Positions 47,332-56,610 of a DNA stretch of 64,000 nt are shown here, piece by piece. This stretch comes from an uncultured Nitrososphaerales archaeon (lineage in GTDB: Archaea; Thermoproteota; Nitrososphaeria; Nitrososphaerales; Nitrososphaeraceae), in assembly GCA_963709405.1 (NCBI GenBank), contig CAVPXM010000020.1:32001-96000 (forward strand), given 5' to 3'. The notes beneath the pieces are model-generated. The model ran no database searches and had not been told where the DNA came from. It saw nothing but the letters and a program-made list of their open reading frames with translations. The first letter of the stretch is position 1. Each line of letters starts with the position of its first letter. A program made the position numbers and the translations under genes.

Positions 47332-47736
47332 GAGATATATTTAGGCTCCAGATAAAATGATTTGATTTTAGTAGGACTAGATTCGAATCATAGCTACGTT
47401 TTTAATTTGTACAATATTATTTGAAAGCTCGACTCCAAATGTATTGATTGTATGGAATTTTGTGTCTTTTTAATTAATTACTCTTCAAATTCACATCCAG
47501 AAAATTTCCGAATCTCCAAATTATAATCCACGCACAGTGGAGTTCTTTATGGATTTACCTAGACGCGTGGATGACTTGCAACAGAAAGTTGAAAATTTAT
47601 CTGCTTCTCTTGGAATATTCAAACTTAAAAATGAACCAATCCCTACCAGAATCGAAGAAGATGGACAAGCAGAGAATGAACCAAAATGTATGAAAGAAGA
47701 GATGTTTGCTTCAAACGGCTTTACCGGGAAAAGCGA

Positions 47737-47950
47737 TGTCATATCATAATAACATCAGGAATATATCAAGGATTTCTACTGGAGCTAGAAGACTCGACGC
47801 GATACTTTATGGTGGAATAGAGACACATGCAATAACAGAGTTCTATGGAGCAAGCGGTACGGGTAAAACACAAATTTGTCATGCGTTAGCAGTAATGGCC
47901 ACAGGAGAAGGACTGCATGGTAATGTAATTTTTGTCGATACTCATGGCGC
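47737..47950 (+). pseudogene. RadA/Rad51-like ATPase fragment
   Basis: ISTGARRLDAILYGGIETHAITEFYGASGTGKTQICH..VIFVDTHG, then ends. Confidence 0.8.
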
Positions 47951-47954
47951 ACTT

Positions 47955-48190
47955 TTGCGGGAGGCATGTGCGGAAAAATATCTATGGCACATTTCAATCC
48001 TGCAGTTTCAGTAGGTTTTCTAATTACCAAACATATAACAAAAATCCAGTTACTCTATTACTTTTCAGCAGAAATATTCGGTGCTTTACTTGCGAGTCTT
48101 TTTGTAAAATTTATGATAGGAAATCAAGCCAACTTGGGGGCAAATGCTCCAAATTATGCCTATCCAATCCCAACAATAATTGGAGTTGAG
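47955..48190 (+). pseudogene. Aquaporin/MIP internal fragment
   Basis: GKISMAHFNPAVSVGF...AEIFGALLASL...IGVE; only the first NPA is present. Confidence 0.85.
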
Positions 48191-48256
48191 ATGACTCATT
48201 CAAGTTCACTTTTCCTCGTTTTGCTAGTCCTTTAGAAAAGTATTTGCTATATCAGC

Positions 48257-49420
48257 TTATCGGAGCGGATCTTCCTTCTCGTTTCTATATGCTTGTATGG
48301 GATGCACAGCCTTTGAATCTAGAAATGACTTTTTAATGAACTGCGACGATATTGAACCTGAAATAAATGCTTCTATTATTCGATTAATACACACTTGCTC
48401 CAACTCTTTTATCATTCTATTAAAGAATTGTTCTGCTACGTTTACTATAATCTTCGAGTAAGCAATGTCATCAATAGAATTTTCTTGTTGATAGCATAAC
48501 TGTTCATTTGTAGACAGTCCATGATTATACTGGTCAATCATACCAAATTCCGCTAGTTGTGTCTCTGTTGTTGTTATAGCAACCGCTGATAAATTATAAT
48601 AAAGAATTTTGAATTTTACAGGATCTCTTCGACATGACTCTATAACCGATTGAAGGGCTACTAGCAATACATGTCTATGATTCATTAATCTTTGTTCAAT
48701 TATTTGTTTGACAAATTCTTTAATCCTTTGAAGACTTTCATTGTTATCATGAAAATGTCTAACAACAGATTCTAGTTTTTCTTTTTGCAATCGCAACTTA
48801 GATAGCTCAAGGCGCTCTTCCTTGCAGGATGAACGATACTGATTTAATATCTTGGATTCCTCTGATATGTCGTTGCTTAATTGTTGAAAGGTTCTAGCCG
48901 TTTCCAAATTCTTGGTGTTTAAAGATGTCTCTTCAAGTTTGAGATCTTGGCATTTTCGTTCAATTGATTGAATATCATTATTGGCTATTTTAAGCAAGTT
49001 AACTACTTGTAATACATCCATTTTTGCAGCCTTTGCTGCTTTACACAAATTTACAAAATATGATATATCATCCTTAAATTCTAAATACAGCTTGGTAATA
49101 TCATCAAGTTCGCGTAACCTCAAATATTCCATATAGTATTGAGCTACCTGAGCTTGTCCGAGGTTTAACTTGATGGCCACTTTAAGTGTCGTATTACCTT
49201 TAGAAAAAAGTTCATAGGCTTGTACGAACAAGGATTTATGTTCCTGTCGCTCTTTTTCTTCCTTTGTCTTGTTTACAATCTCCCCAATATCACGAAGAGA
49301 TATTTTCATCTCTTTAGCTATCTGCCTATAATTTTTGTTCTGATTAAAGTGTAGGTCTAAAACACGTTCTTCTCTTTCTTTCTTGCTCAATATGCGATTT
49401 GAATCAAATTCTTTTGTCAT
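48257..49420 (-). CDS. HTH + coiled-coil family protein (intact, 387 aa)
   Basis: KKEREERVLDLHFNQNKNYRQIAKEMKISLRDI, second HTH-like AYELFSKG..VAIKLNL, long heptad-rich region. Confidence 0.8.
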   Translation of the reverse strand: MTKEFDSNRILSKKEREERVLDLHFNQNKNYRQIAKEMKISLRDIGEIVNKTKEEKERQEHKSLFVQAYELFSKGNTTLKVAIKLNLGQAQVAQYYMEYLRLRELDDITKLYLEFKDDISYFVNLCKAAKAAKMDVLQVVNLLKIANNDIQSIERKCQDLKLEETSLNTKNLETARTFQQLSNDISEESKILNQYRSSCKEERLELSKLRLQKEKLESVVRHFHDNNESLQRIKEFVKQIIEQRLMNHRHVLLVALQSVIESCRRDPVKFKILYYNLSAVAITTTETQLAEFGMIDQYNHGLSTNEQLCYQQENSIDDIAYSKIIVNVAEQFFNRMIKELEQVCINRIIEAFISGSISSQFIKKSFLDSKAVHPIQAYRNEKEDPLR

Positions 49421-49463
49421 GTCAAACCATATTATAAAAGCTGCATTTAAAATAAAAATAACC

Positions 49464-49573
49464 TGCTACCAGCATGTACATCATGCTACCAACATTTTTT
49501 CATGTGTAGCCTAGTTGTCTCCTCTTGTTGTCATGCTATTGTCATATGTTACCTTCTACCTTCATGTGTTATC
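49464..49573 (-). promoter_or_regulatory. Degenerate heptamer array upstream of HTH/coiled-coil gene
   Basis: + strand: TGCTACC 49464 and 49484, TGTTGTC 49526, TATTGTC 49537, TGTTACC 49547, TGTTATC 49567. Confidence 0.5.
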
Positions 49574-49925
49574 ATGCAATTTTTACTGAACTCAAAATGG
49601 CTCTTTTGAGAAGAGTGGATTGTGCTAAAGAATTTTTGCAATTAATTACATGTTAATGAAAAACGCAATAGCAACAACAAGAAATGATTCTACACCAACC
49701 AATCAACCATAATGATGCTTAGCAACTTTTCCAGATATTTTCAATCACGATATACCTACTATTATTACGTCCTTACTTGCATGGCTCTTAAGTAAAAAGG
49801 CAAAAAAGGAAAATGATATCATTTATAACAACTATATGTGAAAAGGCAATATTTACTCACTGAATATCTTTAATATAAGTGCCTAAATCCAGAGAAGCCA
49901 GTTCATAGAGGTTAACTAGTTAGTT

Positions 49926-51090
49926 GAGGCTTGGGCATATTCCAGATCCATATTTTATGTCTATAATGAATTAGGATAAAGCTATCCTTTGAGTGTCTGA
50001 ATTTGTGATGAAACATAATCAAACATTCCCAAAGGATAGCATATGGTAGTAAATGTGAATCTATTCTTTTTAGTATTCTGTACTTGATAGGTTCGATACC
50101 GTGGTCAGAATCGCAAAAGGGAAGAAGGGGCAGACCATATGTTTATTCTCCCACTGTAATTCTGAGATGTTTCATAGTTAGGCTATGGTTTAGACTGGAT
50201 TCTAACAATGCATTACATGAATTCCTAGAATTGGATTATCCTTACAATAAGATAATGAAAAGATGTGGTCTTACCCAAATACCAGACAGGCGAACATTTG
50301 ACAGACGACTTAAGACCATATCCACAGACATCAAAAAAAGGATTACTATCATGACCTGCATGTTTGTATGCGAAAAGATGATAAATCCATACATTGTTGC
50401 AATAGATAGTACTTTACTGAAAGCCAAAGGACATGTTTGGCACAAATCATCTATGAACAAAGGTATAGTACCATGTTCTGGCATAGATACTGACGCAAGA
50501 TGGGGATTCAGCCATACTAAAGGATGGATATTTGGTTACAAACTACATATGATATCAAGTACTGGTTCCGTCATAGTCCCATTAGCAGCAGATTTTACAA
50601 CTGCTAATGTACAAGATAATCAAATGTACAATCCGATGATATCATCATCATCTCTGTCTCCAGAAACATGTTTCATGATAGGCGATTCTGGGTATGACGA
50701 CCATAAACTATATGGCTTGAGTACTAAAAGAGGATTTGAACTGGTATGTCCAGTACAAAGATATGAACATACCCCTACTGACAGACTTGAGCTGATACAA
50801 TTCTATGAATCTGAGTTAGGACAGGCTATTTACTCTTGGAGAAGTAAATCGATAGAACCACTAATAGAACATATTAAATCTGTTTTTAGAATAGACCCAT
50901 TACCAGTAAGAGGCTACCATAAGGCTGCTGGAATAGCACTTCTGTCAGTACTACTATATCAGATCCTTGTCTACTACAATTATAAAACCAGACGTAGTCA
51001 ACGACCAAAATCAATCAAACACATGTTATGTAGTTAATATGTTACCAAATAATATATGAAAAATATAGAATTCAATTATGTCCAAGCCTC
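49926..51090 (+). mobile_element. IS5-like (DDE_Tnp_1) insertion sequence
   Basis: TIRs GAGGCTTGGGCATA / TATGTCCAAGCCTC; 8-bp target duplication AGTTAGTT (49918-25, 51091-98); transposase 50084-51037 with IDST, GYKLH, DSGYD, R..IE. Confidence 0.92.
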
Positions 51091-51260
51091 AGTTAGTTAT
51101 GTTTTAGGCGTGGTTAGCCAAATAGTCTGCGCTCTTTTTCTAGCTAACTTATTTTACTATATCGTTTTCCGTTATCACAATTATAATCTTTGCAGTTTCA
51201 AAAATTTGGAACTCTTGACAAATTAAGTGTGCGATAATGTATTACATTATCGTCTGAGTG

Positions 51261-53009
51261 TCAACTAATTCTTGGAAAAAATATAGGAATAAGAGATTTC
51301 TCAACCGAAGGATCCTTGATGTAAATGAACTTTGAAACTTCCTTAGAATCAATAATCTGTTGTAACAAAGATAGACAGTCTGGCGTGGTCGCAAAAACAA
51401 GTTTCCAGAAATCATCAACCTTCACATTTCTGTTGATTGGGAATCTGCATCTTATTCCTTTCCATGATATTTGCCTGTTTCTTGGCGCCTTACCTCTTTT
51501 GGGTGTTGGCGGAGTCTTAACACATCCATCAATTTCACATACTTTTACTCTTTGTCTCTTGACGATAATAATACCTTCATCGTCTCTCAGCTCATTAGGT
51601 TTGCCATCCTGATCTTTGAAAGTAGGCAGAAATACTTCGCTATACCATTTCGCAATATATGGCCTAAGACTGCTTGCTGCCCTTTCCATAAGCTCAAGAG
51701 TCTCTTTCAAGTCATCAAGAATCATTATAGGGTAAGACTGACAAGTTTCTTTATCCAGTATCTTAGGCCTACAATCCATATGTATCTTTGTAATGATTGC
51801 AAGGTATTTCATTAGCCTTCCCTGTACTGTCATACTCCATACTTGGTTTTCAGAAACTGGAATTGATTCTGATATAGCTTCGGTAATAGGAATTGGAATC
51901 ATGATACCAGAGTCCTTTGGCTTTAAATTTACGCTATGTTGCCTGAGTTTTGCAATTATGACTTTTATTATGTGTCTGCACTTTTCCTTGTCTTCTCTTC
52001 CGACTACTAGTGCATCATATTCTTCTGGAAGACAGCCGTACTTATATCCAATTAATTTGTTTGCTGCCTTTATCTTTTCTTTACTTGTATCAGGTGTTAT
52101 ATTGATAAACCTTCTATTCTTTTCATCAAAACGCAATCCTCTAGTATCATCTATTACTCGTGTAGTGAATAACACAGGCATACCTCTTAACCTGTTAACT
52201 CTTGTTCGCAATTGACCGGAAACAGACTTCTCAGCAAAGGTATATTTTTGATCGCGTGGGGTGTCCTGTGATATCAGACTCATTAGTACGCTAAGTAACG
52301 AGTCTTGAGGAGTGTCTAGACATAAAATTATCTGATTGTCTAGCTCTATTAACTTCTCAGCATTGTTCTTAACGTCCTTGATCCGCGCTTCAATTACCTT
52401 AATCTCTTTCCTATCCTGCCTGGATAGCTTGTCTTTTTCCTGAATTTCTTCTATTTGTAATTCTAGTTCGCTTATTAGTGGAGCTATTGCACGAGTCTCC
52501 TCTTCGTCAGTTTCTTCGTTATATTCCGATGTCACTAGAGTACCTGGACGATGAACTAGGGCCTTGTCAGACATACCAGCCAGCTCTATAATGTATTTAC
52601 TGGGAAAATATCCAGCTACAGTAACTAGTAGGTACGTCTTACCTGCTCCTGAGTCCCTCGAATTAATAGCGTGAGGGATGGGGCATTTAGTAAATGCACT
52701 ACAATAACCATAAAATAGCTGCTTAATAGATACTTCATCATATTCTGCTTCTTTTTTCATCGTAGAAATAACAAGAGCAATATCCTCTGTTGTTAGTTTT
52801 TCATTAGCAAGCTGCTCATCAGAATTGGGCTTTGCCAATCGGATCTCTGTTTCTTTGTTTCCTGAAGATTCTGACTCTTCTTGTATTGAATCATTCCCTT
52901 CCTCATGGGATTGACAGCTATCCGAGCTGAGACCTCGAAGCAGATCGTCTGGATCTTTCTGCCCATTCTCCGGTCCCATATCTTTGTTTGGGTTACTATC
53001 ACCTATCAT
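51261..53009 (-). CDS. P-loop NTPase, putative mobile-element helicase/primase-associated ATPase
   Basis: Walker A SGAGKT, coiled-coil insert, CLD Walker B-like, EKNRRF arginine-finger-like. Confidence 0.65.
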   Translation of the reverse strand: MIGDSNPNKDMGPENGQKDPDDLLRGLSSDSCQSHEEGNDSIQEESESSGNKETEIRLAKPNSDEQLANEKLTTEDIALVISTMKKEAEYDEVSIKQLFYGYCSAFTKCPIPHAINSRDSGAGKTYLLVTVAGYFPSKYIIELAGMSDKALVHRPGTLVTSEYNEETDEEETRAIAPLISELELQIEEIQEKDKLSRQDRKEIKVIEARIKDVKNNAEKLIELDNQIILCLDTPQDSLLSVLMSLISQDTPRDQKYTFAEKSVSGQLRTRVNRLRGMPVLFTTRVIDDTRGLRFDEKNRRFINITPDTSKEKIKAANKLIGYKYGCLPEEYDALVVGREDKEKCRHIIKVIIAKLRQHSVNLKPKDSGIMIPIPITEAISESIPVSENQVWSMTVQGRLMKYLAIITKIHMDCRPKILDKETCQSYPIMILDDLKETLELMERAASSLRPYIAKWYSEVFLPTFKDQDGKPNELRDDEGIIIVKRQRVKVCEIDGCVKTPPTPKRGKAPRNRQISWKGIRCRFPINRNVKVDDFWKLVFATTPDCLSLLQQIIDSKEVSKFIYIKDPSVEKSLIPIFFPRIS

Positions 53010-53012
53010 GGC

Positions 53013-53444
53013 TTAAATAAACTCCCATCTTAATGGCTCATTCTCGATATATTGATAGAAAGCCATTTTACGTCGGGCTCTGAAAATTCTAAACACGGCC
53101 TGAGTTACGATTCTATTAACTGATTCTATGGGCAGGGCGGCAAGCTCAGCCCTTAGTCTTGGAGAAAAATCTTCCAGATGCAGATGAAATCTTGGCTTAT
53201 ATTTGGCATTCTTACCTTCGAAGTTACCAATACTTCTTAGACCAGCATATTTGTCAGCTTGATAAAAATACCTATTAAGCTGCCCTATAGCTATTTTTTG
53301 TCGCCTTTACTTCAACGGTCTTCTGGCACTCGCACATCTGCAAATATAGTTCATCTTCGATGAAGCTAGAGAGCCAGTGAATTTCTTTCGCATTAAATTT
53401 CCAATCAGCCAAAAAGGCCGGTGGGACAAATACCTTCTCTTCAT
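53013..53444 (-). pseudogene. Disrupted hypothetical ORF between Toprim and ATPase genes
   Basis: Long frame EKVFVPPAFLADW...PLRWEFI* with internal TAA TAG; abuts both neighbours. Confidence 0.4.
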
Positions 53445-54389
53445 TCATTTCCTTAGAGGCACGAACCGAACGCTTTCGTTTACAAGTCGCTGTATATCTC
53501 GGGAGCTGAACTCATTAAGTGAATCCTTATGTATTTGTTTATCAAAATATTGATCCACTGAGCCAAGCACCAGCCTTCTTAATCTCTCGGGGTCTTTCTG
53601 CAAAGCATCAGTTTCGATTTGATATAGTCCGCCATTTTCTTTAGCAAATGCATTCGCATTTGGATCACGTCTTAATTTCTCTAAAACTTGCGGATCAGGA
53701 TTCTTCAGGTGGTCTAGACCAAAGTCCACAATCTGCGACTTTCTCAGTGCAGTTCTCTCAAAATGAATGCCATAACCTCGAAGTTTCTGTCCGAGATTGT
53801 AGGACATTCTGAGACCTGTCGGATCATAATCACCAAAATAAAGAACGTGGACGATCTTACCTTGTCGTTTCTTAGAAAGTAATCGCTGAATATTGTTGTA
53901 TTCGTACGTGATACTCGACCACCCGCGATTAGGAACAATACGGACTTGTCTATCTTTCAAGATTTCCTGGAATGTTCCAACAACTGCATCTTTTTCTATA
54001 AATACTTCGACATAATGACGCTGATCATACCATCTTGGTATAGTATGATGGTATGATCTGTGTAAGTGTCGCAGTTTACCCAGGAAATAGTTTATAAATT
54101 CAATTGGTTCCCAATATCTATCGTCAATTTCAATTATGTGCCTGCTGTTATCGACAAAGGAGTCCATTGGAATTAGTTTCTTCTTTCTGGCGGTAGAAAG
54201 TGCCTTCACGAGACCCTTATATGCAGGTGTTGTAAGTGGTATGACCTGATCGGACCCGGCCCTATAAAATATCCCTCTTATCGTAGGCTTGAAACCGGTG
54301 TATTCGTTGTCTAGCAGATGCCTAACGTATGGTATTACAAAGTCAACCCAGTCGATCACTTTTGTTGCAGCATTGCTGGCGGTGATCAT
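53445..54389 (-). CDS. Topoisomerase VI-A/Spo11-like Toprim protein (Mini-A type)
   Basis: TIRGIFYR (WHD tyrosine), VEVFIEKDA (Toprim Glu), YFGDYDPTG (DxD), ETDAL. Confidence 0.75.
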   Translation of the reverse strand: MITASNAATKVIDWVDFVIPYVRHLLDNEYTGFKPTIRGIFYRAGSDQVIPLTTPAYKGLVKALSTARKKKLIPMDSFVDNSRHIIEIDDRYWEPIEFINYFLGKLRHLHRSYHHTIPRWYDQRHYVEVFIEKDAVVGTFQEILKDRQVRIVPNRGWSSITYEYNNIQRLLSKKRQGKIVHVLYFGDYDPTGLRMSYNLGQKLRGYGIHFERTALRKSQIVDFGLDHLKNPDPQVLEKLRRDPNANAFAKENGGLYQIETDALQKDPERLRRLVLGSVDQYFDKQIHKDSLNEFSSRDIQRLVNESVRFVPLRK

Positions 54390-55230
54390 GACCCAAGTGC
54401 CCCCTGTGCTAGAATTTTATTACCATTAATTTCTGAAGTCTCGTGATTTTTTGACTTTTGCAGTCTGCCTGTGAAGAATAGATAATATATAAATATTTAT
54501 CTTATAAGCTCTACTCAGAGATGATAGTTATCTATCTTTAATCTTGGTTAAGAATCCTCTGTTCTATAATTAATTTTTTGAACTGAAAAATGATTTTGGC
54601 ACGTGAATCATAGTAATTCTAAAAGACATTGTTACATTATAGTGCCGAGATCCTTTTAACTGTCTGAACCTGTAATAATTACAATATTCATAATTAATTC
54701 GTTTCAATCAATAGTCTTTTCAAGCTCATTCTAGGTCCATTTTGTTGACATAAGTATTCAAAATGAGAGCGTTTACTGAGCATAAACACTCTGACAATCT
54801 AATAGAATTTAAAAGGTACATGGCAAACGAAGGTAAAAAAATCTGAAATGGCTCCGGAATATATAACTGACATAGAATTACCCATCGGAATACATTTTGA
54901 AGTGCTATTGTATCATCTTTAAAACATAACCAGATAAACAGAATGATACATCTAATATAAAACAATATTCAGCGATTATGACTAAGCTGACATAGGATCT
55001 TTTTGTCTGCTCAAGCATATCTTGTTGTAGTTTATTCTATCATTTGTATAATTTCATCATGTAATGATCCAAATTCATTGCTCATCACACAACTTTCCCA
55101 TCATCTGTCCGGTTAATATTGCTAGTGATTTAATCATGATTTTCATTTTTTATCGCCATTGTAAACTTGAATCACATACTGTTGAGACCATAGTCAAGGT
55201 GTACCAGGCTATAGTGTGGATAAGAATCCC

Positions 55231-55944
55231 TCACTTTCTTATCCTATACTTGTTCATAATTCGTAGTACTTCTTCATCACTCACCTGGCTGAAATCTTCG
55301 TAGAATGCTCCGACTGCTCCAAAGGGCTCAGGTGTTTCCAAGAATACTACTTGATTTACTCCTTCTTCCCCTTCTAGTTTTTGAATGGCATCTTTGGGAG
55401 CAACTGGGATTGCTACAATTAAAGTTTCTGGTTTTTGTTCTCTTATCCACTGTATCGCGGCGAAAACAGACGCACCTGTAGCAATACCATCGTCAACCAA
55501 AATTATAGTCTTGCCTCTTAGATTGTATTCTTGTGAATGTCTGAACAATAAGAGACGACGTTGAATTTCTTTCATTTGAATTGCTATATTTTTCTTAATG
55601 TAATCATTAGAAATTTGCAAGATCCGTATTAAATCAGAATTTGCAAAGAAACTACCGTCGTGCATTACTGCGCCTATTGCGAGCTCTGGATTATCTGGAG
55701 CGCCAATCTTTCTTGAGACAATTATGTCTAAATCTAATCCAAGAATTGAAGCTAAGACATCACCAGTTACTACACCTCCCCTAGGTATAGCTAGGATTTG
55801 GGTATTAGATCTGTTATCGCTATCCTCATTCTTATTCTTGTCTAAGAGCGATCTTAATCGTTCTGCTAGTCGTCGACCGGCATCCTCTCTATTCTCGAAT
55901 ATGGTATAGTTGGTATCATCATCGCGTCCAAATCGATTATACAT
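55231..55944 (-). CDS. Type I phosphoribosyltransferase
   Basis: FENREDAGRRLA, AIPRGG, RKIGAP.NPELAIGA, ILVDDGIATG; likely start ATG 55944. Confidence 0.88.
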   Translation of the reverse strand: MYNRFGRDDDTNYTIFENREDAGRRLAERLRSLLDKNKNEDSDNRSNTQILAIPRGGVVTGDVLASILGLDLDIIVSRKIGAPDNPELAIGAVMHDGSFFANSDLIRILQISNDYIKKNIAIQMKEIQRRLLLFRHSQEYNLRGKTIILVDDGIATGASVFAAIQWIREQKPETLIVAIPVAPKDAIQKLEGEEGVNQVVFLETPEPFGAVGAFYEDFSQVSDEEVLRIMNKYRIRK

Positions 55945-55999
55945 GTCACTGGTTATTAGGATCCATTTAGCTAAATATGAGTTATAACTAGGACCGTGT

Positions 56000-56610
56000 C
56001 CTTCACCTAAAATTCCCATCACTCTTGCGGCGTGTTCATTATAGACTTTTCCAACTTTTTTAATTTCAAGTGAATGATTTCCTGATCCCGAGCTACCAAG
56101 TTGCGGACTTCCTCTTCTTTTTGCAATATTCGAGACTTTGGAAGGATCTGCCCCTTCAACACAACCATTTTCTTCACATACTTCTAAATCCTTATCTAGC
56201 CATCCATACCCATTCTTGATAGCGCATTGCATACCATTAGATAAGACGTGACTTAGTTCCGATTCAATAAGCGGTATTCGTCCTCGGCTTACAACTCCGC
56301 TAGGAATAGCTTCGAATAATGTATCTATTAGAACAGGGATCTTTTCCCTTCTCGCTGTGGCTTCATATCTACCGCAGTTACACCACCTATAGGAAAACCA
56401 TATCCTTTATGACCATCAAACAGTACAGCAACAGGTCCAACTATGTCTTGTAATGCTTTAACATTGACCGCTTGATCTATAGCACGATCAGATGCCATAA
56501 AGGAAGCCAGTGTATCGTGGGCATAGATACTGACAGGAATCTCCATGCCTTTCGCAGGATCCTGTTGAACGATGAATTCAAAATCACTTACTTTCCTAAC
56601 TTGATAATTG
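56000..56610 (-). pseudogene. rtcB: RtcB RNA ligase relic (internal and C-terminal deletions)
   Basis: DQAVNV..DGHKGYGFPIGGV, IPSGV, CEENG..GADPSKVS..RRG.PQLGS.GSGNH.LEI; GYDINC motif absent. Confidence 0.85.

What the first reader, a model, noticed from the sequence alone, without database searches (positions are those of the whole stretch)
48257..54389. Cryptic integrated-element module: Mini-A (Topo VI-A-like) + unknown ORF + P-loop ATPase + HTH/coiled-coil gene
Seen: co-oriented minus-strand genes, the first three tightly packed; the Toprim gene looks more GC-rich than the flanks (by eye). The 314-aa protein has a WHD tyrosine (IFYR) and Toprim EKD/DxD but no topo VI-B partner in the window. 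The ATPase has Walker A SGAGKT and an RRF motif. Known: short Topo VI-A homologs (Mini-A) occur in archaeal mobile elements, and the same fold is the Wadjet nuclease JetD. Inference: either a replication/resolution module of an undescribed thaumarchaeal element or a Toprim nuclease + ATPase + coiled-coil defence-like system. The left edge truncates an aquaporin gene at about 48190, consistent with an insertion boundary.
Basis: partly seen in the sequence, partly recalled or inferred. Interest (0 to 1): 0.72.

Follow-up and report, generated by a model that had tools for sequence, protein, structure and literature searches.

The report
Decayed mobile-element replication module remnant
This stretch is a broken leftover of a mobile element's DNA-copying genes in an archaeon: a small topoisomerase-like DNA cutter beside a helicase-like motor, a pairing that recurs in related archaea and may hint at how the cutter works.

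Summary
The genes exist, but they are not one four-gene module. Only window 51558-54478 is a unit. It is a 2.9-kb, integrase-less fragment of an integrated mobile element, and a fuller copy with a tyrosine integrase lies on contig C38.

The fragment holds four things:
- the last 30 codons of a 123-aa ORF;
- an intact 314-aa Mini-A (Topo VI-A-like) with all catalytic motifs;
- a conserved 144-aa ORF, frameshifted by one base at 53283;
- an ATPase whose model matches MCM AAA+ domains (Z 18.4).

Relatives of the ATPase are fused to Prim-Pol or family-B polymerase. The window copy has lost its C-terminal ~140 residues.

It separates the fragment from the HTH/coiled-coil gene, which belongs to a 23-locus family not linked to Mini-A. 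The aquaporin piece is cut at both ends and is not the element's edge.

Mini-A and this ATPase family are neighbours in 5 of 55 other Mini-A loci in the same archaeal family. Integrase, PolB, MCM or Prim-Pol genes surround Mini-A in related genomes. This supports a replication module and not a defence system.

Verdict: a new, decayed member of known kinds (Mini-A; thaumarchaeal cryptic integrated elements). Interest is moderate to low.

The parts
54389..54478 (-). 3' stub (last 30 codons) of the 123-aa ORF that precedes Mini-A in the fuller copy on contig C38. Homology to C38 ends at 54475-54478.
   Evidence: tblastn of the C38 123-aa ORF: residues 94-123, 97% identity, E 9e-15. Nucleotide alignment ends at 54475. 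Metagenome contigs of run X1 bridge this junction with 0 differences.
53445..54389 (-). Intact Mini-A gene (314 aa): N-terminal winged-helix/5Y-CAP domain with R38..F41-Y42, Toprim domain with E132 and D187xD189xxG192, and a C-terminal T2BI-like box Q-I-E259-T-D261-A-L.
   Evidence: phrog_6247 E 1.3e-39. 74 homologues. Invariant catalytic residues in 44 sequences. AF2 pLDDT 92. Topo VI-A 1d3y_B Z 10.6, rmsd 3.5 over 144 residues, and WH matches for residues 10-85.
53013..53448 (-). Gene of a conserved 144-aa family (function unknown), broken by a 1-base insertion at 53283. The rest of the frame is open.
   Evidence: C38 copy is 144 aa. The single indel lies at 53283. Frames shown. 30 homologues. 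A soil-metagenome contig identical over 53130-53341 lacks the extra base.
51540..53009 (-). MCM-like AAA+ ATPase, homologous part (codons 1-490): acidic disordered N-terminus, Walker A S120-GAGKT125, invariant L-D232-T-P-Q-D236 in the Walker B position, N-R299-R-F (likely arginine finger), and a helical hairpin insert.
   Evidence: 170 homologues. Alignment. AF2 pLDDT 84.6. Foldseek top hits are MCM chains, E 2e-7. PfMCM-AAA 4r7z_A Z 18.4, rmsd 3.5 over 264 residues. Relatives fused to Prim-Pol, PriCT_1 or PolB.
51261..51539 (-). Unrelated 92-codon tail. It replaces the ~140-residue C-terminal domain of full-length relatives, so the gene is 3'-truncated.
   Evidence: Alignment with the 627-639-aa relatives P0076, P0079 and P0080 diverges after codon ~490. 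Nucleotide homology to C38 starts at 51558.
49926..51090 (+). Insertion sequence (IS5/IS4-like DDE transposase, 50084-51037) flanked by AGTTAGTT on both sides. Not part of the module.
   Evidence: PF01609 E 2.7e-21. NCBIfam IS1182/IS5. 16 or more copies at 96-99% identity in the genome. Ends and flanks.
48257..49420 (-). HTH + coiled-coil gene (387 aa), a member of a multi-copy Nitrososphaerota family. An incidental neighbour, not part of the module.
   Evidence: Sigma70_r4-like HTH E 3e-4. 32 matches / 23 loci in the genome, many with stops. Atlas clusters are Nitrososphaerota HTH_23/Sigma70_r4 proteins.
47706..48235 (+). Gene debris: RadA fragment (47706-48014) overlapping an aquaporin fragment (47966-48235) that is truncated at both ends.
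   Evidence: Rad51 PF08423 positions 4-73 of 244 and MIP PF00230 positions 61-147 of 222. RadA NF003301 positions 73-149 of 316. Three full-length aquaporin paralogues elsewhere in the genome.

Best explanation
Window 51558-54478 is a dead, integrase-less fragment of the replication operon of a thaumarchaeal 'cryptic integrated element'. The operon order is 123-aa ORF, Mini-A, 144-aa ORF, MCM-like AAA+ helicase.

Shown: gene identities, folds, truncations, the second copy with an integrase, and recurrence of the Mini-A/ATPase pair in other genomes.

Inferred for the intact element:
- The AAA+ protein is the replicative or initiator helicase. In relatives it carries an N-terminal Prim-Pol domain and a C-terminal domain that I read as DNA-binding.
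- The Mini-A dimer cuts DNA through Tyr42 and the Mg-binding Toprim site. It either nicks the origin to start replication, or relieves and resolves topological links of the small circular replicon.
- The 144-aa protein is an accessory factor, translationally coupled to both.

History in this genome:
- The locus lost its integrase and regulatory end, and the helicase lost its C-terminus.
- An IS landed beside it.
- About 1.3 kb (Mini-A plus the 5' half of the small ORF) was recently homogenised with the C38 copy.
For: Mini-A identity:
- phrog_6247 E 1.3e-39.
- R38, Y42, E132, K133, D187, P190 and G192 are invariant, and D189, E259, D261 and A262 are at least 90% conserved, in 44 sequences.
- Model pLDDT 92. 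Topo VI-A chains score Z 10.0-10.6 and Spo11 8.4.
- hhalign puts the RGIFY motif on the host Top6A RGMYY motif.

ATPase:
- MCM AAA+ domains are the 9 best VIA matches, Z 16.3-18.4. Foldseek gives E 2e-7.
- Prim-Pol fusions occur in P0118 and P0127 (2 of 11 scanned), in the same-genus 916-aa L185 ORF and in P0361. PriCT_1 occurs in P0102.
- P0273 carries a C-terminal PolB fusion (1 of 18 scanned). It parallels a canonical MCM-PolB fusion that follows a 144-aa-family gene next to Mini-A in L021.
- A paralogue on C42 lies beside an IS-split PolB.

Element context:
- The C38 copy has a tyrosine integrase (PF00589, E 1.5e-12) 1.3 kb upstream of Mini-A.
- In 8 Nitrososphaerales-type Mini-A loci, integrase-family hits occur in 5, PolB in 3 and Prim-Pol in 1.

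Linkage:
- An ATPase-family match lies within 3 kb on the same contig at 5 of 55 Mini-A loci in 150 other family genomes. This comes from my cross-reading.
- L181 keeps the order Mini-A, small ORF, ATPase.

Decay and mosaic:
- The ATPase copies differ by dS 0.84 with omega 0.12. The Mini-A copies differ by dS 0.02.

Phage relatives:
- Of the 27 neighbour ORFs that had a PHROG category, 22 are DNA/nucleotide metabolism (150 ORFs scanned).

Literature (passages read):
- Mini-A is MGE-borne and no B subunit is known (PMC7671362).
- A replication-initiator role has been proposed for it (bioRxiv 10.1101/2021.07.29.453957).
- Thaumarchaeal cryptic integrated elements carry MCM, PolB or primpol replication modules (PMC6563490).
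Against: - No origin, att site or tRNA target was found. Aragorn found no tRNA in C38:40001-70000, and no direct repeat of 14 bp or more was found. No terminal repeats mark the fragment's edges.
- No copy in this genome is intact. The C38 ATPase stops at codon 509 next to an rve-type IS, and the third Mini-A copy (C37) has an in-frame TAG.
- The Mini-A/ATPase pairing is a minority pattern: 5 of 55 loci. By tblastn it appears in only 1 of 80 genome loci and 1 weak case in 79 metagenome loci.
- The ATPase fails the Pfam MCM model. It has Asp-Thr where AAA+ proteins have Asp-Glu in Walker B.
- Its structural neighbours also include non-replicative AAA+ proteins: RavA Z 16.0, BchI 14.7 and the defence protein BrxL 12.2.
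- By fold alone, Mini-A is tied with the Wadjet-type nuclease 8b7f_B (Z 10.1).
- No biochemical activity is known for any Mini-A.
- Both structures are predictions.
Confidence: 0.72

Rival explanations
1. A defence-type system: a Toprim nuclease (JetD/OLD-like) works with an AAA+ motor (BrxL- or Wadjet-like) and a coiled-coil protein to sense and cut invading DNA.
For: - Mini-A's Toprim domain matches the C. glutamicum Wadjet-type nuclease 8b7f_B at Z 10.1, tied with Topo VI-A.
- PADLOC gives weak JetD hits, E 0.004 and 0.016.
- BrxL, an MCM-like AAA+ defence protein, matches the ATPase model at Z 12.2.
- Defence islands often sit among mobile-element debris (general knowledge).
Against: - The JetD hits cover only 24-49 residues around DxD.
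- No PADLOC hit at E 0.1 or better for the ATPase or the small ORF; the HTH gene had only a Cas2a hit at E 0.087.
- No SMC/kleisin-like partners are present. The coiled-coil gene is an unrelated multi-copy HTH family behind an IS.
- Mini-A keeps the tyrosine motif and the T2BI box that define the Mini-A subfamily.
- The ATPase family is fused to Prim-Pol, PriCT_1 or PolB.
- The neighbours are integrases and replication genes.
Confidence: 0.07
2. Mini-A here is no longer an element gene but a domesticated host gene. It is kept intact in two near-identical copies while its neighbours decay, and it works alone or with host proteins such as the host Topo VI-B.
For: - Both copies are full-length and 99% identical, while the adjacent ORFs are frameshifted or truncated.
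- The host has a Topo VI B-A pair on C55.
Against: - The 8 differences between the copies are 4 synonymous and 4 non-synonymous, with dS 0.02. Intactness may therefore only reflect a very recent copy or conversion event.
- The third copy has a stop codon.
- Mini-A was found in 0 of 6 other genomes of the same genus and in 44 of 150 of the family, often with stops. That patchiness is typical of mobile genes.
- According to PMC7671362, Mini-A lacks the N-terminal 5Y-CAP part that binds Topo VI-B.
- The upstream operon and promoter region are missing in the window.
Confidence: 0.08
3. Mini-A and the ATPase are both mobile-element genes, but they act independently. Their adjacency reflects only the modular packing of replication and recombination genes.
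For: - 50 of 55 Mini-A loci in related genomes have no ATPase-family neighbour.
- Where they are adjacent, the order varies. The ATPase is upstream of Mini-A in L019 and L183, and on the opposite strand in L184.
- In other loci a canonical MCM, Prim-Pol or PolB takes the ATPase's place.
- Phage Mini-A relatives sit beside many different DNA-metabolism genes.
Against: - Five adjacencies among diverged pairs (ATPase identity 23-50%) are far more than my rough chance estimate of well under one.
- Overlapping or abutting reading frames in the window, C38, L181 and L182 suggest co-translation.
Confidence: 0.3

Closest known systems
Mini-A subfamily of type IIB topoisomerase A subunits (Takahashi et al., NAR Genom Bioinform 2019/20, PMC7671362; passages read)
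   Same: About 300 aa. RxxF-Y catalytic tyrosine motif, Toprim E + DxDxxG, a C-terminal T2BI-type box, no adjacent GHKL B subunit, and carried by a mobile element. Matches the phage family phrog_6247 at E 1.3e-39.
   Different: The T2BI box reads Q-I-E-T-D-A-L rather than xWELDAL. The context is an integrase-bearing element without visible virion genes, not a recognisable provirus. IMG/VR viral contigs hold only relatives of 34% identity or less.
Cryptic integrated elements (CIE) of Thaumarchaeota (Krupovic et al., Environ Microbiol 2019, PMC6563490; passages read)
   Same: Small integrase-defined elements with varied replication modules (MCM, PolB, primpol-helicase, Cch-like AAA+). The C38 copy fits this: integrase plus small regulators plus a replication operon.
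   Different: In the passages found for 'Toprim', 'topoisomerase', 'Topo VI' and 'Top6A', that paper mentions only type IA topoisomerases. The window copy has no integrase or att sites and is a fragment.
MGE primase-helicase replication proteins with the order PrimPol, PriCT/Zn, P-loop ATPase (MCM-like and others), WH (PrimQH family; Kazlauskas et al., J Mol Biol 2018, PMC5862659; passages read). Cch helicase of SCCmec (5dgk).
   Same: The AAA+ core has an MCM-like fold (Z 18.4; Cch Z 11.4). Relatives carry N-terminal Prim-Pol or PriCT_1 and a C-terminal extra domain.
   Different: No Pfam, NCBIfam or PHROG model recognises the core. It has Asp-Thr in the Walker B position and a long helical hairpin insert. 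The window copy has neither a Prim-Pol nor the C-terminal domain.
Wadjet JetD / MksG nuclease (PDB 8b7f)
   Same: Toprim domain of the Topo VI-A type; structural Z 10.1.
   Different: No JetA/B/C partners. PADLOC hits are only marginal. The protein keeps the Mini-A tyrosine motif and T2BI box.

Membership tests
Mini-A (type IIB topoisomerase A-like, MGE-borne) | Length about 300 aa, shorter than Topo VI-A, lacking the N-terminal part of 5Y-CAP | tested here: met
   314 aa. The host Top6A ORF is 368 aa. The model shows a WH domain (residues ~10-85) followed by Toprim.
Mini-A (type IIB topoisomerase A-like, MGE-borne) | Catalytic tyrosine in an RxxF/Y-Y motif | tested here: met
   R38-G-I-F41-Y42. 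R38 and Y42 are invariant in 44 sequences. The motif aligns to host Top6A R-G-M-Y-Y.
Mini-A (type IIB topoisomerase A-like, MGE-borne) | Toprim metal site: E followed by DxDxxG | tested here: met
   E132, D187, P190 and G192 are invariant; D189 is at least 90% conserved.
Mini-A (type IIB topoisomerase A-like, MGE-borne) | C-terminal T2BI box of the xWELDAL type | tested here: met
   Y-Q-I-E259-T-D261-A262-L263. E, D and A are at least 90% conserved in 44 sequences, and the family consensus is F-Q-I-E-L-D-A-L. W is replaced by I, so this is a variant form.
Mini-A (type IIB topoisomerase A-like, MGE-borne) | No GHKL B subunit beside it; mobile-element context | tested here: met
   The only Topo-VIb_trans match in the genome is on C55. 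Integrase and IS context.
Canonical Topo VI-A / Spo11 (Pfam TP6A_N PF04406) | Match to the TP6A_N model over its cut-off | tested here: not met
   No PF04406 hit for the protein at E 0.1 or better. The genome-wide PF04406 search matches only C55.
Wadjet (JetABCD) | JetD (DUF2220-type) match plus SMC-like JetC, JetA and JetB partners | tested here: not met
   JetD hits have E 0.004 and 0.016 over 24-49 residues. No PADLOC hit for the ATPase or the small ORF; the HTH gene had only a Cas2a hit at E 0.087.
MCM helicases (Pfam MCM PF00493) | Sequence match to the MCM P-loop domain model | tested here: not met
   No hit in the Pfam scan. The genome-wide PF00493 search does not match the window locus. 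hhalign to the host MCM aligns only the Walker A region, E 0.004.
MCM helicases (Pfam MCM PF00493) | AAA+ fold of the MCM clade (core with beta-hairpin inserts and lid) | tested here: met
   4r7z_A Z 18.4, rmsd 3.5 over 264 residues. The nine top chains are all MCMs, Z 16.3-18.4. Foldseek E 2e-7, probability 1.00.
MCM helicases (Pfam MCM PF00493) | Walker A GKS/T, Walker B D-E, SRF-type arginine finger | tested here: inconclusive
   Walker A G-A-G-K124-T is present. The Walker B position has an invariant D232-T rather than D-E. N-R299-R-F precedes a predicted strand, as S-R-F-D does in MCM, but I assigned this by pattern and not by a residue-level superposition.
MCM helicases (Pfam MCM PF00493) | N-terminal OB-fold/Zn DNA-binding domain | not tested
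   Window residues 1-65 are acidic and of low complexity and were left out of the model. Relatives carry Prim-Pol there instead.
Thaumarchaeal cryptic integrated element (CIE) | Integrase gene and flanking att repeats | tested here: not met
   The window has no integrase within 50 kb, only a 39-residue fragment at 240-356. The related C38 copy does have an integrase, but no direct repeat of 14 bp or more and no tRNA was found there.

The most novel reading that the evidence does not exclude
The MCM-like AAA+ protein, with the conserved 144-aa protein as an adaptor, is the long-sought ATPase partner of Mini-A. It would be a non-GHKL 'Mini-B'. Together they would form an ATP-driven machine that loads at the element's origin and makes a tyrosine-linked DNA break to start replication or to decatenate the replicon. 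That would give the orphan Mini-A subfamily a mechanism and show a type IIB cleavage core working with an AAA+ motor.
Probability: 0.12. Interest if true: 0.72.

Novelty: new member of a known kind. Interest (0 to 1): 0.36.

Why it matters
Mini-A proteins are widespread. No activity or partner is known for them.

This locus is dead. Even so, it and its relatives show that in soil ammonia-oxidiser lineages Mini-A lies in an operon with a small conserved protein and an unnamed MCM-like AAA+ family. That family has 1583 cluster representatives at E 0.001 or better, and some members are fused to Prim-Pol or PolB. This gives concrete candidates for co-expression and biochemical tests of Mini-A's function.

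It also adds Mini-A to the replication-gene repertoire of thaumarchaeal cryptic integrated elements. For annotating this genome, it flags a region of gene debris, not a functional system.

Tried and rejected
- **Binding test.** Complex prediction (Mini-A alignment A3 with 144-aa alignment A5) was never queued. The queue was full, so no binding test exists.
- **Solved-structure sequence searches.** For single proteins and for the A4 profile there was nothing meaningful. The A1 profile gave Topo VI-A 1d3y at E 0.3 only.
- **Foldseek.** Mini-A against PDB had no hit at E 0.001 or better; the best was 1d3y_B at 0.016. Against BFVD there was one unnamed hit at 3.5e-4.
- **First metagenome scan** with the single protein found nothing.
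- **ESM Atlas.** The 144-aa ORF scored 0.80 or less, which gives no lead.
- **PHROGs.** The small ORFs of related loci gave nothing, and no link to phrog_9513.
- **Element borders.** The C38 region has no tRNA and no direct repeat of 14 bp or more. The fragment's edges have no terminal repeats.
- **Promoter/terminator scan.** The sigma-70-type scan found 21 sites against 15.2 ± 4.2 in shuffles, and it does not apply to archaea.
- **Sequencing runs.** No RNA holder was listed; the best DNA holder held 0.23 of the words. Window 51200-51541 had no cover in the four runs laid.
- **Cluster look-up** gave no contig names. Shared contig lengths (Mini-A P0002 and 144-aa P0201 both on 4722 bp; P0003 and P0202 on 4697 bp; ATPase P0079 and P0200 on 2743 bp) are only a hint of co-location.
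- **Earlier scan notes** held nothing on this place or sequence.
- **Rejected idea:** that the aquaporin cut marks the element's edge.
- **Rejected idea:** that the HTH/coiled-coil protein is an SMC-like partner.

Full report
**1. What is at the coordinates**

The minus strand carries these ORFs:
- 53445-54389 (314 aa);
- 53275-53448 (57 aa);
- 51261-53009 (582 aa);
- 48257-49420 (387 aa).

It is a DDE transposase (PF01609 E 2.7e-21; IS1182/IS5 models). BLASTN against the window's own genome (4.83 Mb, 100 contigs) finds 16 or more copies of this ~1.17-kb element at 96-99% identity. Its ends are at 49926 and 51090, and AGTTAGTT flanks both sides.

To the left lie a RadA fragment (47706-48014) and an aquaporin fragment (47966-48235, MIP profile positions 61-147 of 222). 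To the right, 55231-56232 is a chimeric ORF that joins an RtcB fragment to a phosphoribosyltransferase domain. The surroundings are therefore gene debris.

**2. The real unit and its second copy**

Window 51558-54475 matches contig C38:53224-56140 without rearrangement and with a single 1-base indel. Reading against the gene direction from its downstream end, C38 carries:
- an rve-type IS transposase;
- a 509-aa ATPase;
- a 144-aa ORF;
- a 314-aa Mini-A;
- a 123-aa ORF;
- a 115-aa ORF and a 247-aa ORF;
- a 399-aa tyrosine integrase (PF00589 E 1.5e-12);
- then a host-like metallophosphoesterase.

In the window only the last 30 codons of the 123-aa ORF remain (54389-54478). No integrase lies nearby.

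The window's 57-aa ORF is the start of the 144-aa gene. An extra base at 53283 shifts the frame, and the rest of the frame stays open to 53013. A soil-metagenome contig that is otherwise identical over 53130-53341 lacks that base. The frameshift is therefore either very recent or an assembly error. Contigs of another run bridge the 54475 junction with no differences, so the truncated arrangement is not an assembly chimera.

Identity along the shared segment is mosaic:
- 69-89% in 100-bp bins over 51558-53199;
- 97-100% over 53200-54475.

The two ATPase copies differ by dS 0.84 and dN 0.10 (omega 0.12). They diverged under purifying selection as parts of two related elements. The two Mini-A copies differ at only 8 sites, 4 synonymous and 4 not (dS 0.02). 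This points to a recent recombination or conversion tract of about 1.3 kb.

A third, 43%-identical Mini-A copy on C37 has an in-frame TAG.

**3. Mini-A**

The 314-aa protein matches no Pfam family over its cut-off. It does match phrog_6247 'DNA topoisomerase' at E 1.3e-39 over residues 27-294. It has 74 homologues at E 0.001 or better.

In an alignment of 44 of them:
- R38, Y42, E132, K133, D187, P190 and G192 are invariant;
- D189, E259, D261 and A262 are at least 90% conserved.

These are the features that Takahashi et al. give for Mini-A: RxxF/Y-Y, E plus DxDxxG, and the C-terminal T2BI box (PMC7671362, passages read).

The AlphaFold model (pLDDT 92, pTM 0.85) has an N-terminal winged-helix domain and a Toprim domain. 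VIA-align gives these scores:

| Match | Z |
|---|---|
| Topo VI-A 1d3y_B (rmsd 3.5, 144 aligned) | 10.6 |
| Topo VI-A 2zbk_A | 10.0 |
| Topo VI-A 2q2e_A | 10.0 |
| Wadjet-type nuclease 8b7f_B | 10.1 |
| Spo11 (8uru_A) | 8.4 |

Fold alone therefore does not separate Topo VI-A from JetD. The tyrosine motif and the T2BI box do.

The host has its own Topo VI B-A pair on C55. A profile comparison puts the window's RGIFY motif on the host subunit's RGMYY.

**4. The ATPase**

No Pfam, NCBIfam, PHROG or PADLOC model matches it meaningfully. It nevertheless has 170 homologues at E 0.001 or better. A profile search finds 1583 cluster representatives at E 0.001 or better, and 297 at 1e-30 or better. The named ones are from Nitrososphaeraceae and Candidatus Nitrosopolaris.

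Full-length close relatives are 627-639 aa. The window protein aligns with them to about codon 490 and then has an unrelated 92-codon tail, so about 140 C-terminal residues are lost. The C38 copy, and an identical-ending database protein (P0077), stop at codon 509.

The model of residues 66-490 (pLDDT 84.6) matches MCM AAA+ domains:
- Foldseek E 2e-7, with 282 chains at E 0.001 or better;
- PfMCM-AAA Z 18.4 (rmsd 3.5 over 264 residues), and the nine best chains are all MCMs;
- then RavA 16.0, BchI 14.7, ComM 12.6, BrxL 12.2 and Cch 11.4.

Motifs:
- Walker A is S-G-A-G-K124-T.
- The Walker B position holds an invariant L-D232-T-P-Q-D236, which is unusual because there is no Asp-Glu pair.
This last assignment is my inference.

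Domain fusions in relatives indicate the role:
- N-terminal Prim-Pol in P0118 and P0127, and PriCT_1 in P0102 (of 11 scanned);
- N-terminal Prim-Pol in a same-genus 916-aa ORF;
- N-terminal Prim-Pol in P0361, and a C-terminal family-B DNA polymerase in P0273 (of 18 scanned).

This is the architecture described for MGE primase-helicase replication proteins (PMC5862659, passages read).

**5. The 144-aa ORF**

It has 30 homologues (E 0.01 or better) with strongly conserved blocks. It has no family or Atlas lead.

In L021 a 51%-identical homologue lies between Mini-A and a 1389-aa canonical MCM-PolB fusion, ending 4 nt before that gene starts. In L181 a 176-aa ORF occupies the same position, with marginal similarity (E 6e-4 in a single comparison).

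**6. Do the genes co-occur elsewhere?**

| Data set | Result |
|---|---|
| tblastn on the 80 best genome loci holding a Mini-A relative | ATPase beside it in 1, 144-aa ORF in 1, integrase in 4, HTH/coiled-coil gene in 2 |
| tblastn on 79 metagenome loci (mostly short) | ATPase in 1 (weak), integrase in 1 |
| 150 other genomes of the same family | Mini-A in 44 (0 of 6 in the same genus); ATPase family in 40 |

Cross-reading the two family tables, 5 of 55 Mini-A loci have an ATPase-family match on the same contig within 3 kb: G110:C3, G049:C74, G075:C370, G080:C422 and G077:C10. ATPase identities there are 23-50%. The order is the same as in the window in two, reversed in two and divergent in one.

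I ran Pfam scans on 8 of the 9 closest loci; L025, a partial match, was left out. Next to Mini-A they show integrase-family hits in 5, PolB in 3 and Prim-Pol in 1. L184 adds an integrase, a DEAD-type helicase and an MCM.

In IMG/VR viral contigs (relatives of 34% identity or less) I scanned 150 ORFs within two genes of Mini-A, from the first 38 of 46 non-redundant loci. Of the 27 that carried a PHROG functional category, 22 were DNA/RNA/nucleotide metabolism.

The linkage is therefore real but facultative, and the general context is replication and recombination.

**7. The HTH/coiled-coil gene and the aquaporin edge**

The 387-aa protein has a weak sigma-70-region-4-type HTH (E 3e-4). It belongs to a Nitrososphaerota-specific family with 32 matches (23 loci) in this genome, many of them with stops. 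Only the window's copy lies within 5 kb of a Mini-A or ATPase gene, and the IS separates it from them. Homologues lie near Mini-A in L020 and L022. Given the family's abundance, that is weak evidence.

The genome has three full-length aquaporin paralogues and three fragments. The window's piece is truncated at both ends and lies 3.3 kb from the end of the duplicated segment. It does not mark the element's boundary.

**8. Explanation and rivals**

The best reading (about 0.72) is a decayed fragment of the replication operon of a thaumarchaeal cryptic integrated element. That class is defined by integrases plus varied replication modules (PMC6563490, passages read).

How Mini-A acts is inferred, not shown. 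It may make a tyrosine-linked cut at an origin, as proposed for Asgard skuldviruses (bioRxiv 10.1101/2021.07.29.453957, passages read), or it may resolve topology. A 2024 review still calls its role unexplored (PMC11894792, passages read).

Rivals:
- A defence reading (about 0.07) is disfavoured by the lack of PADLOC support and by the Prim-Pol and PolB fusions.
- A domesticated host gene (about 0.08) is disfavoured by the patchy distribution and the 4:4 substitution pattern.
- Whether Mini-A and the ATPase act together or merely side by side stays open.

**9. Novelty**

Mini-A, thaumarchaeal integrated elements and Prim-Pol/MCM-like helicase fusions are all in print. The Asgard-virus preprint states that thaumarchaeal Mini-A homologues appear in its tree.

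In my two Mini-A searches and the passages I read, I found no description of a recurrent Mini-A / small ORF / MCM-like AAA+ operon, nor of this ATPase family. The supplementary tables of PMC7671362 and PMC6563490 were not opened and may list such loci.

The locus itself is non-functional debris. It is a new member of known kinds, with a modest lead for testing Mini-A's partner.

Noticed in passing
L194, L197, L199, L203, L206, L209, L219, L244 (viral contigs), 1-2 genes downstream of Mini-A: In phage contigs an uncharacterised 185-236-aa protein (phrog_9513 / phrog_6141) recurs just downstream of Mini-A in 8 loci. phrog_23774 lies just upstream in 3. This may be a phage-side partner of Mini-A. 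It has no sequence link to the 144-aa ORF.
   Followed up: partly
L021:2441-6607: A single 1389-aa ORF fuses a canonical MCM (OB, P-loop and lid domains) to a family-B DNA polymerase, next to Mini-A and a 144-aa-family gene. P0273 (1402 aa) fuses the MCM-like ATPase family to PolB in the same way.
   Followed up: partly
window 49918-49925 and 51091-51098: The IS is flanked by AGTTAGTT on both sides, and BLAST alignments to other copies run into these bases. This suggests a strong target preference, or that the repeat belongs to the element.
   Followed up: partly
window 55231-56232 (-): Chimeric ORF: an RtcB fragment (profile positions 106-176 of 426) joined to a complete-looking phosphoribosyltransferase domain.
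   Followed up: no
window 47706-48235 (+); genome contigs C61, C2, C51, C42, C6: A RadA fragment overlaps an aquaporin fragment. The genome has three full-length aquaporin paralogues (83-88% nt identity to the fragment) plus further fragments. A full-length aquaporin also lies 3 kb from Mini-A in L022.
   Followed up: partly
own genome, e.g. C38:46998-47888: A 296-aa ORF family with weak PriX / LigD Prim-Pol similarity has 21 loci in the genome. There are also 24 integrase-like loci and 23 HTH/coiled-coil loci, so the genome carries a heavy load of mobile-element debris.
   Followed up: no
window 52131-52340 (ATPase residues ~224-293) and model residues 108-153: The MCM-like ATPase family has an invariant Asp-Thr-Pro-Gln-Asp where AAA+ proteins have the Walker B Asp-Glu. 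It also has a long antiparallel helical hairpin inserted between Walker A and Walker B.
   Followed up: no
genome contig C42:26694-31649 (L180): A 35%-identical paralogue of the ATPase (split into two ORFs) is followed by a family-B DNA polymerase interrupted by an IS. This is another decayed element with the same helicase family.
   Followed up: partly
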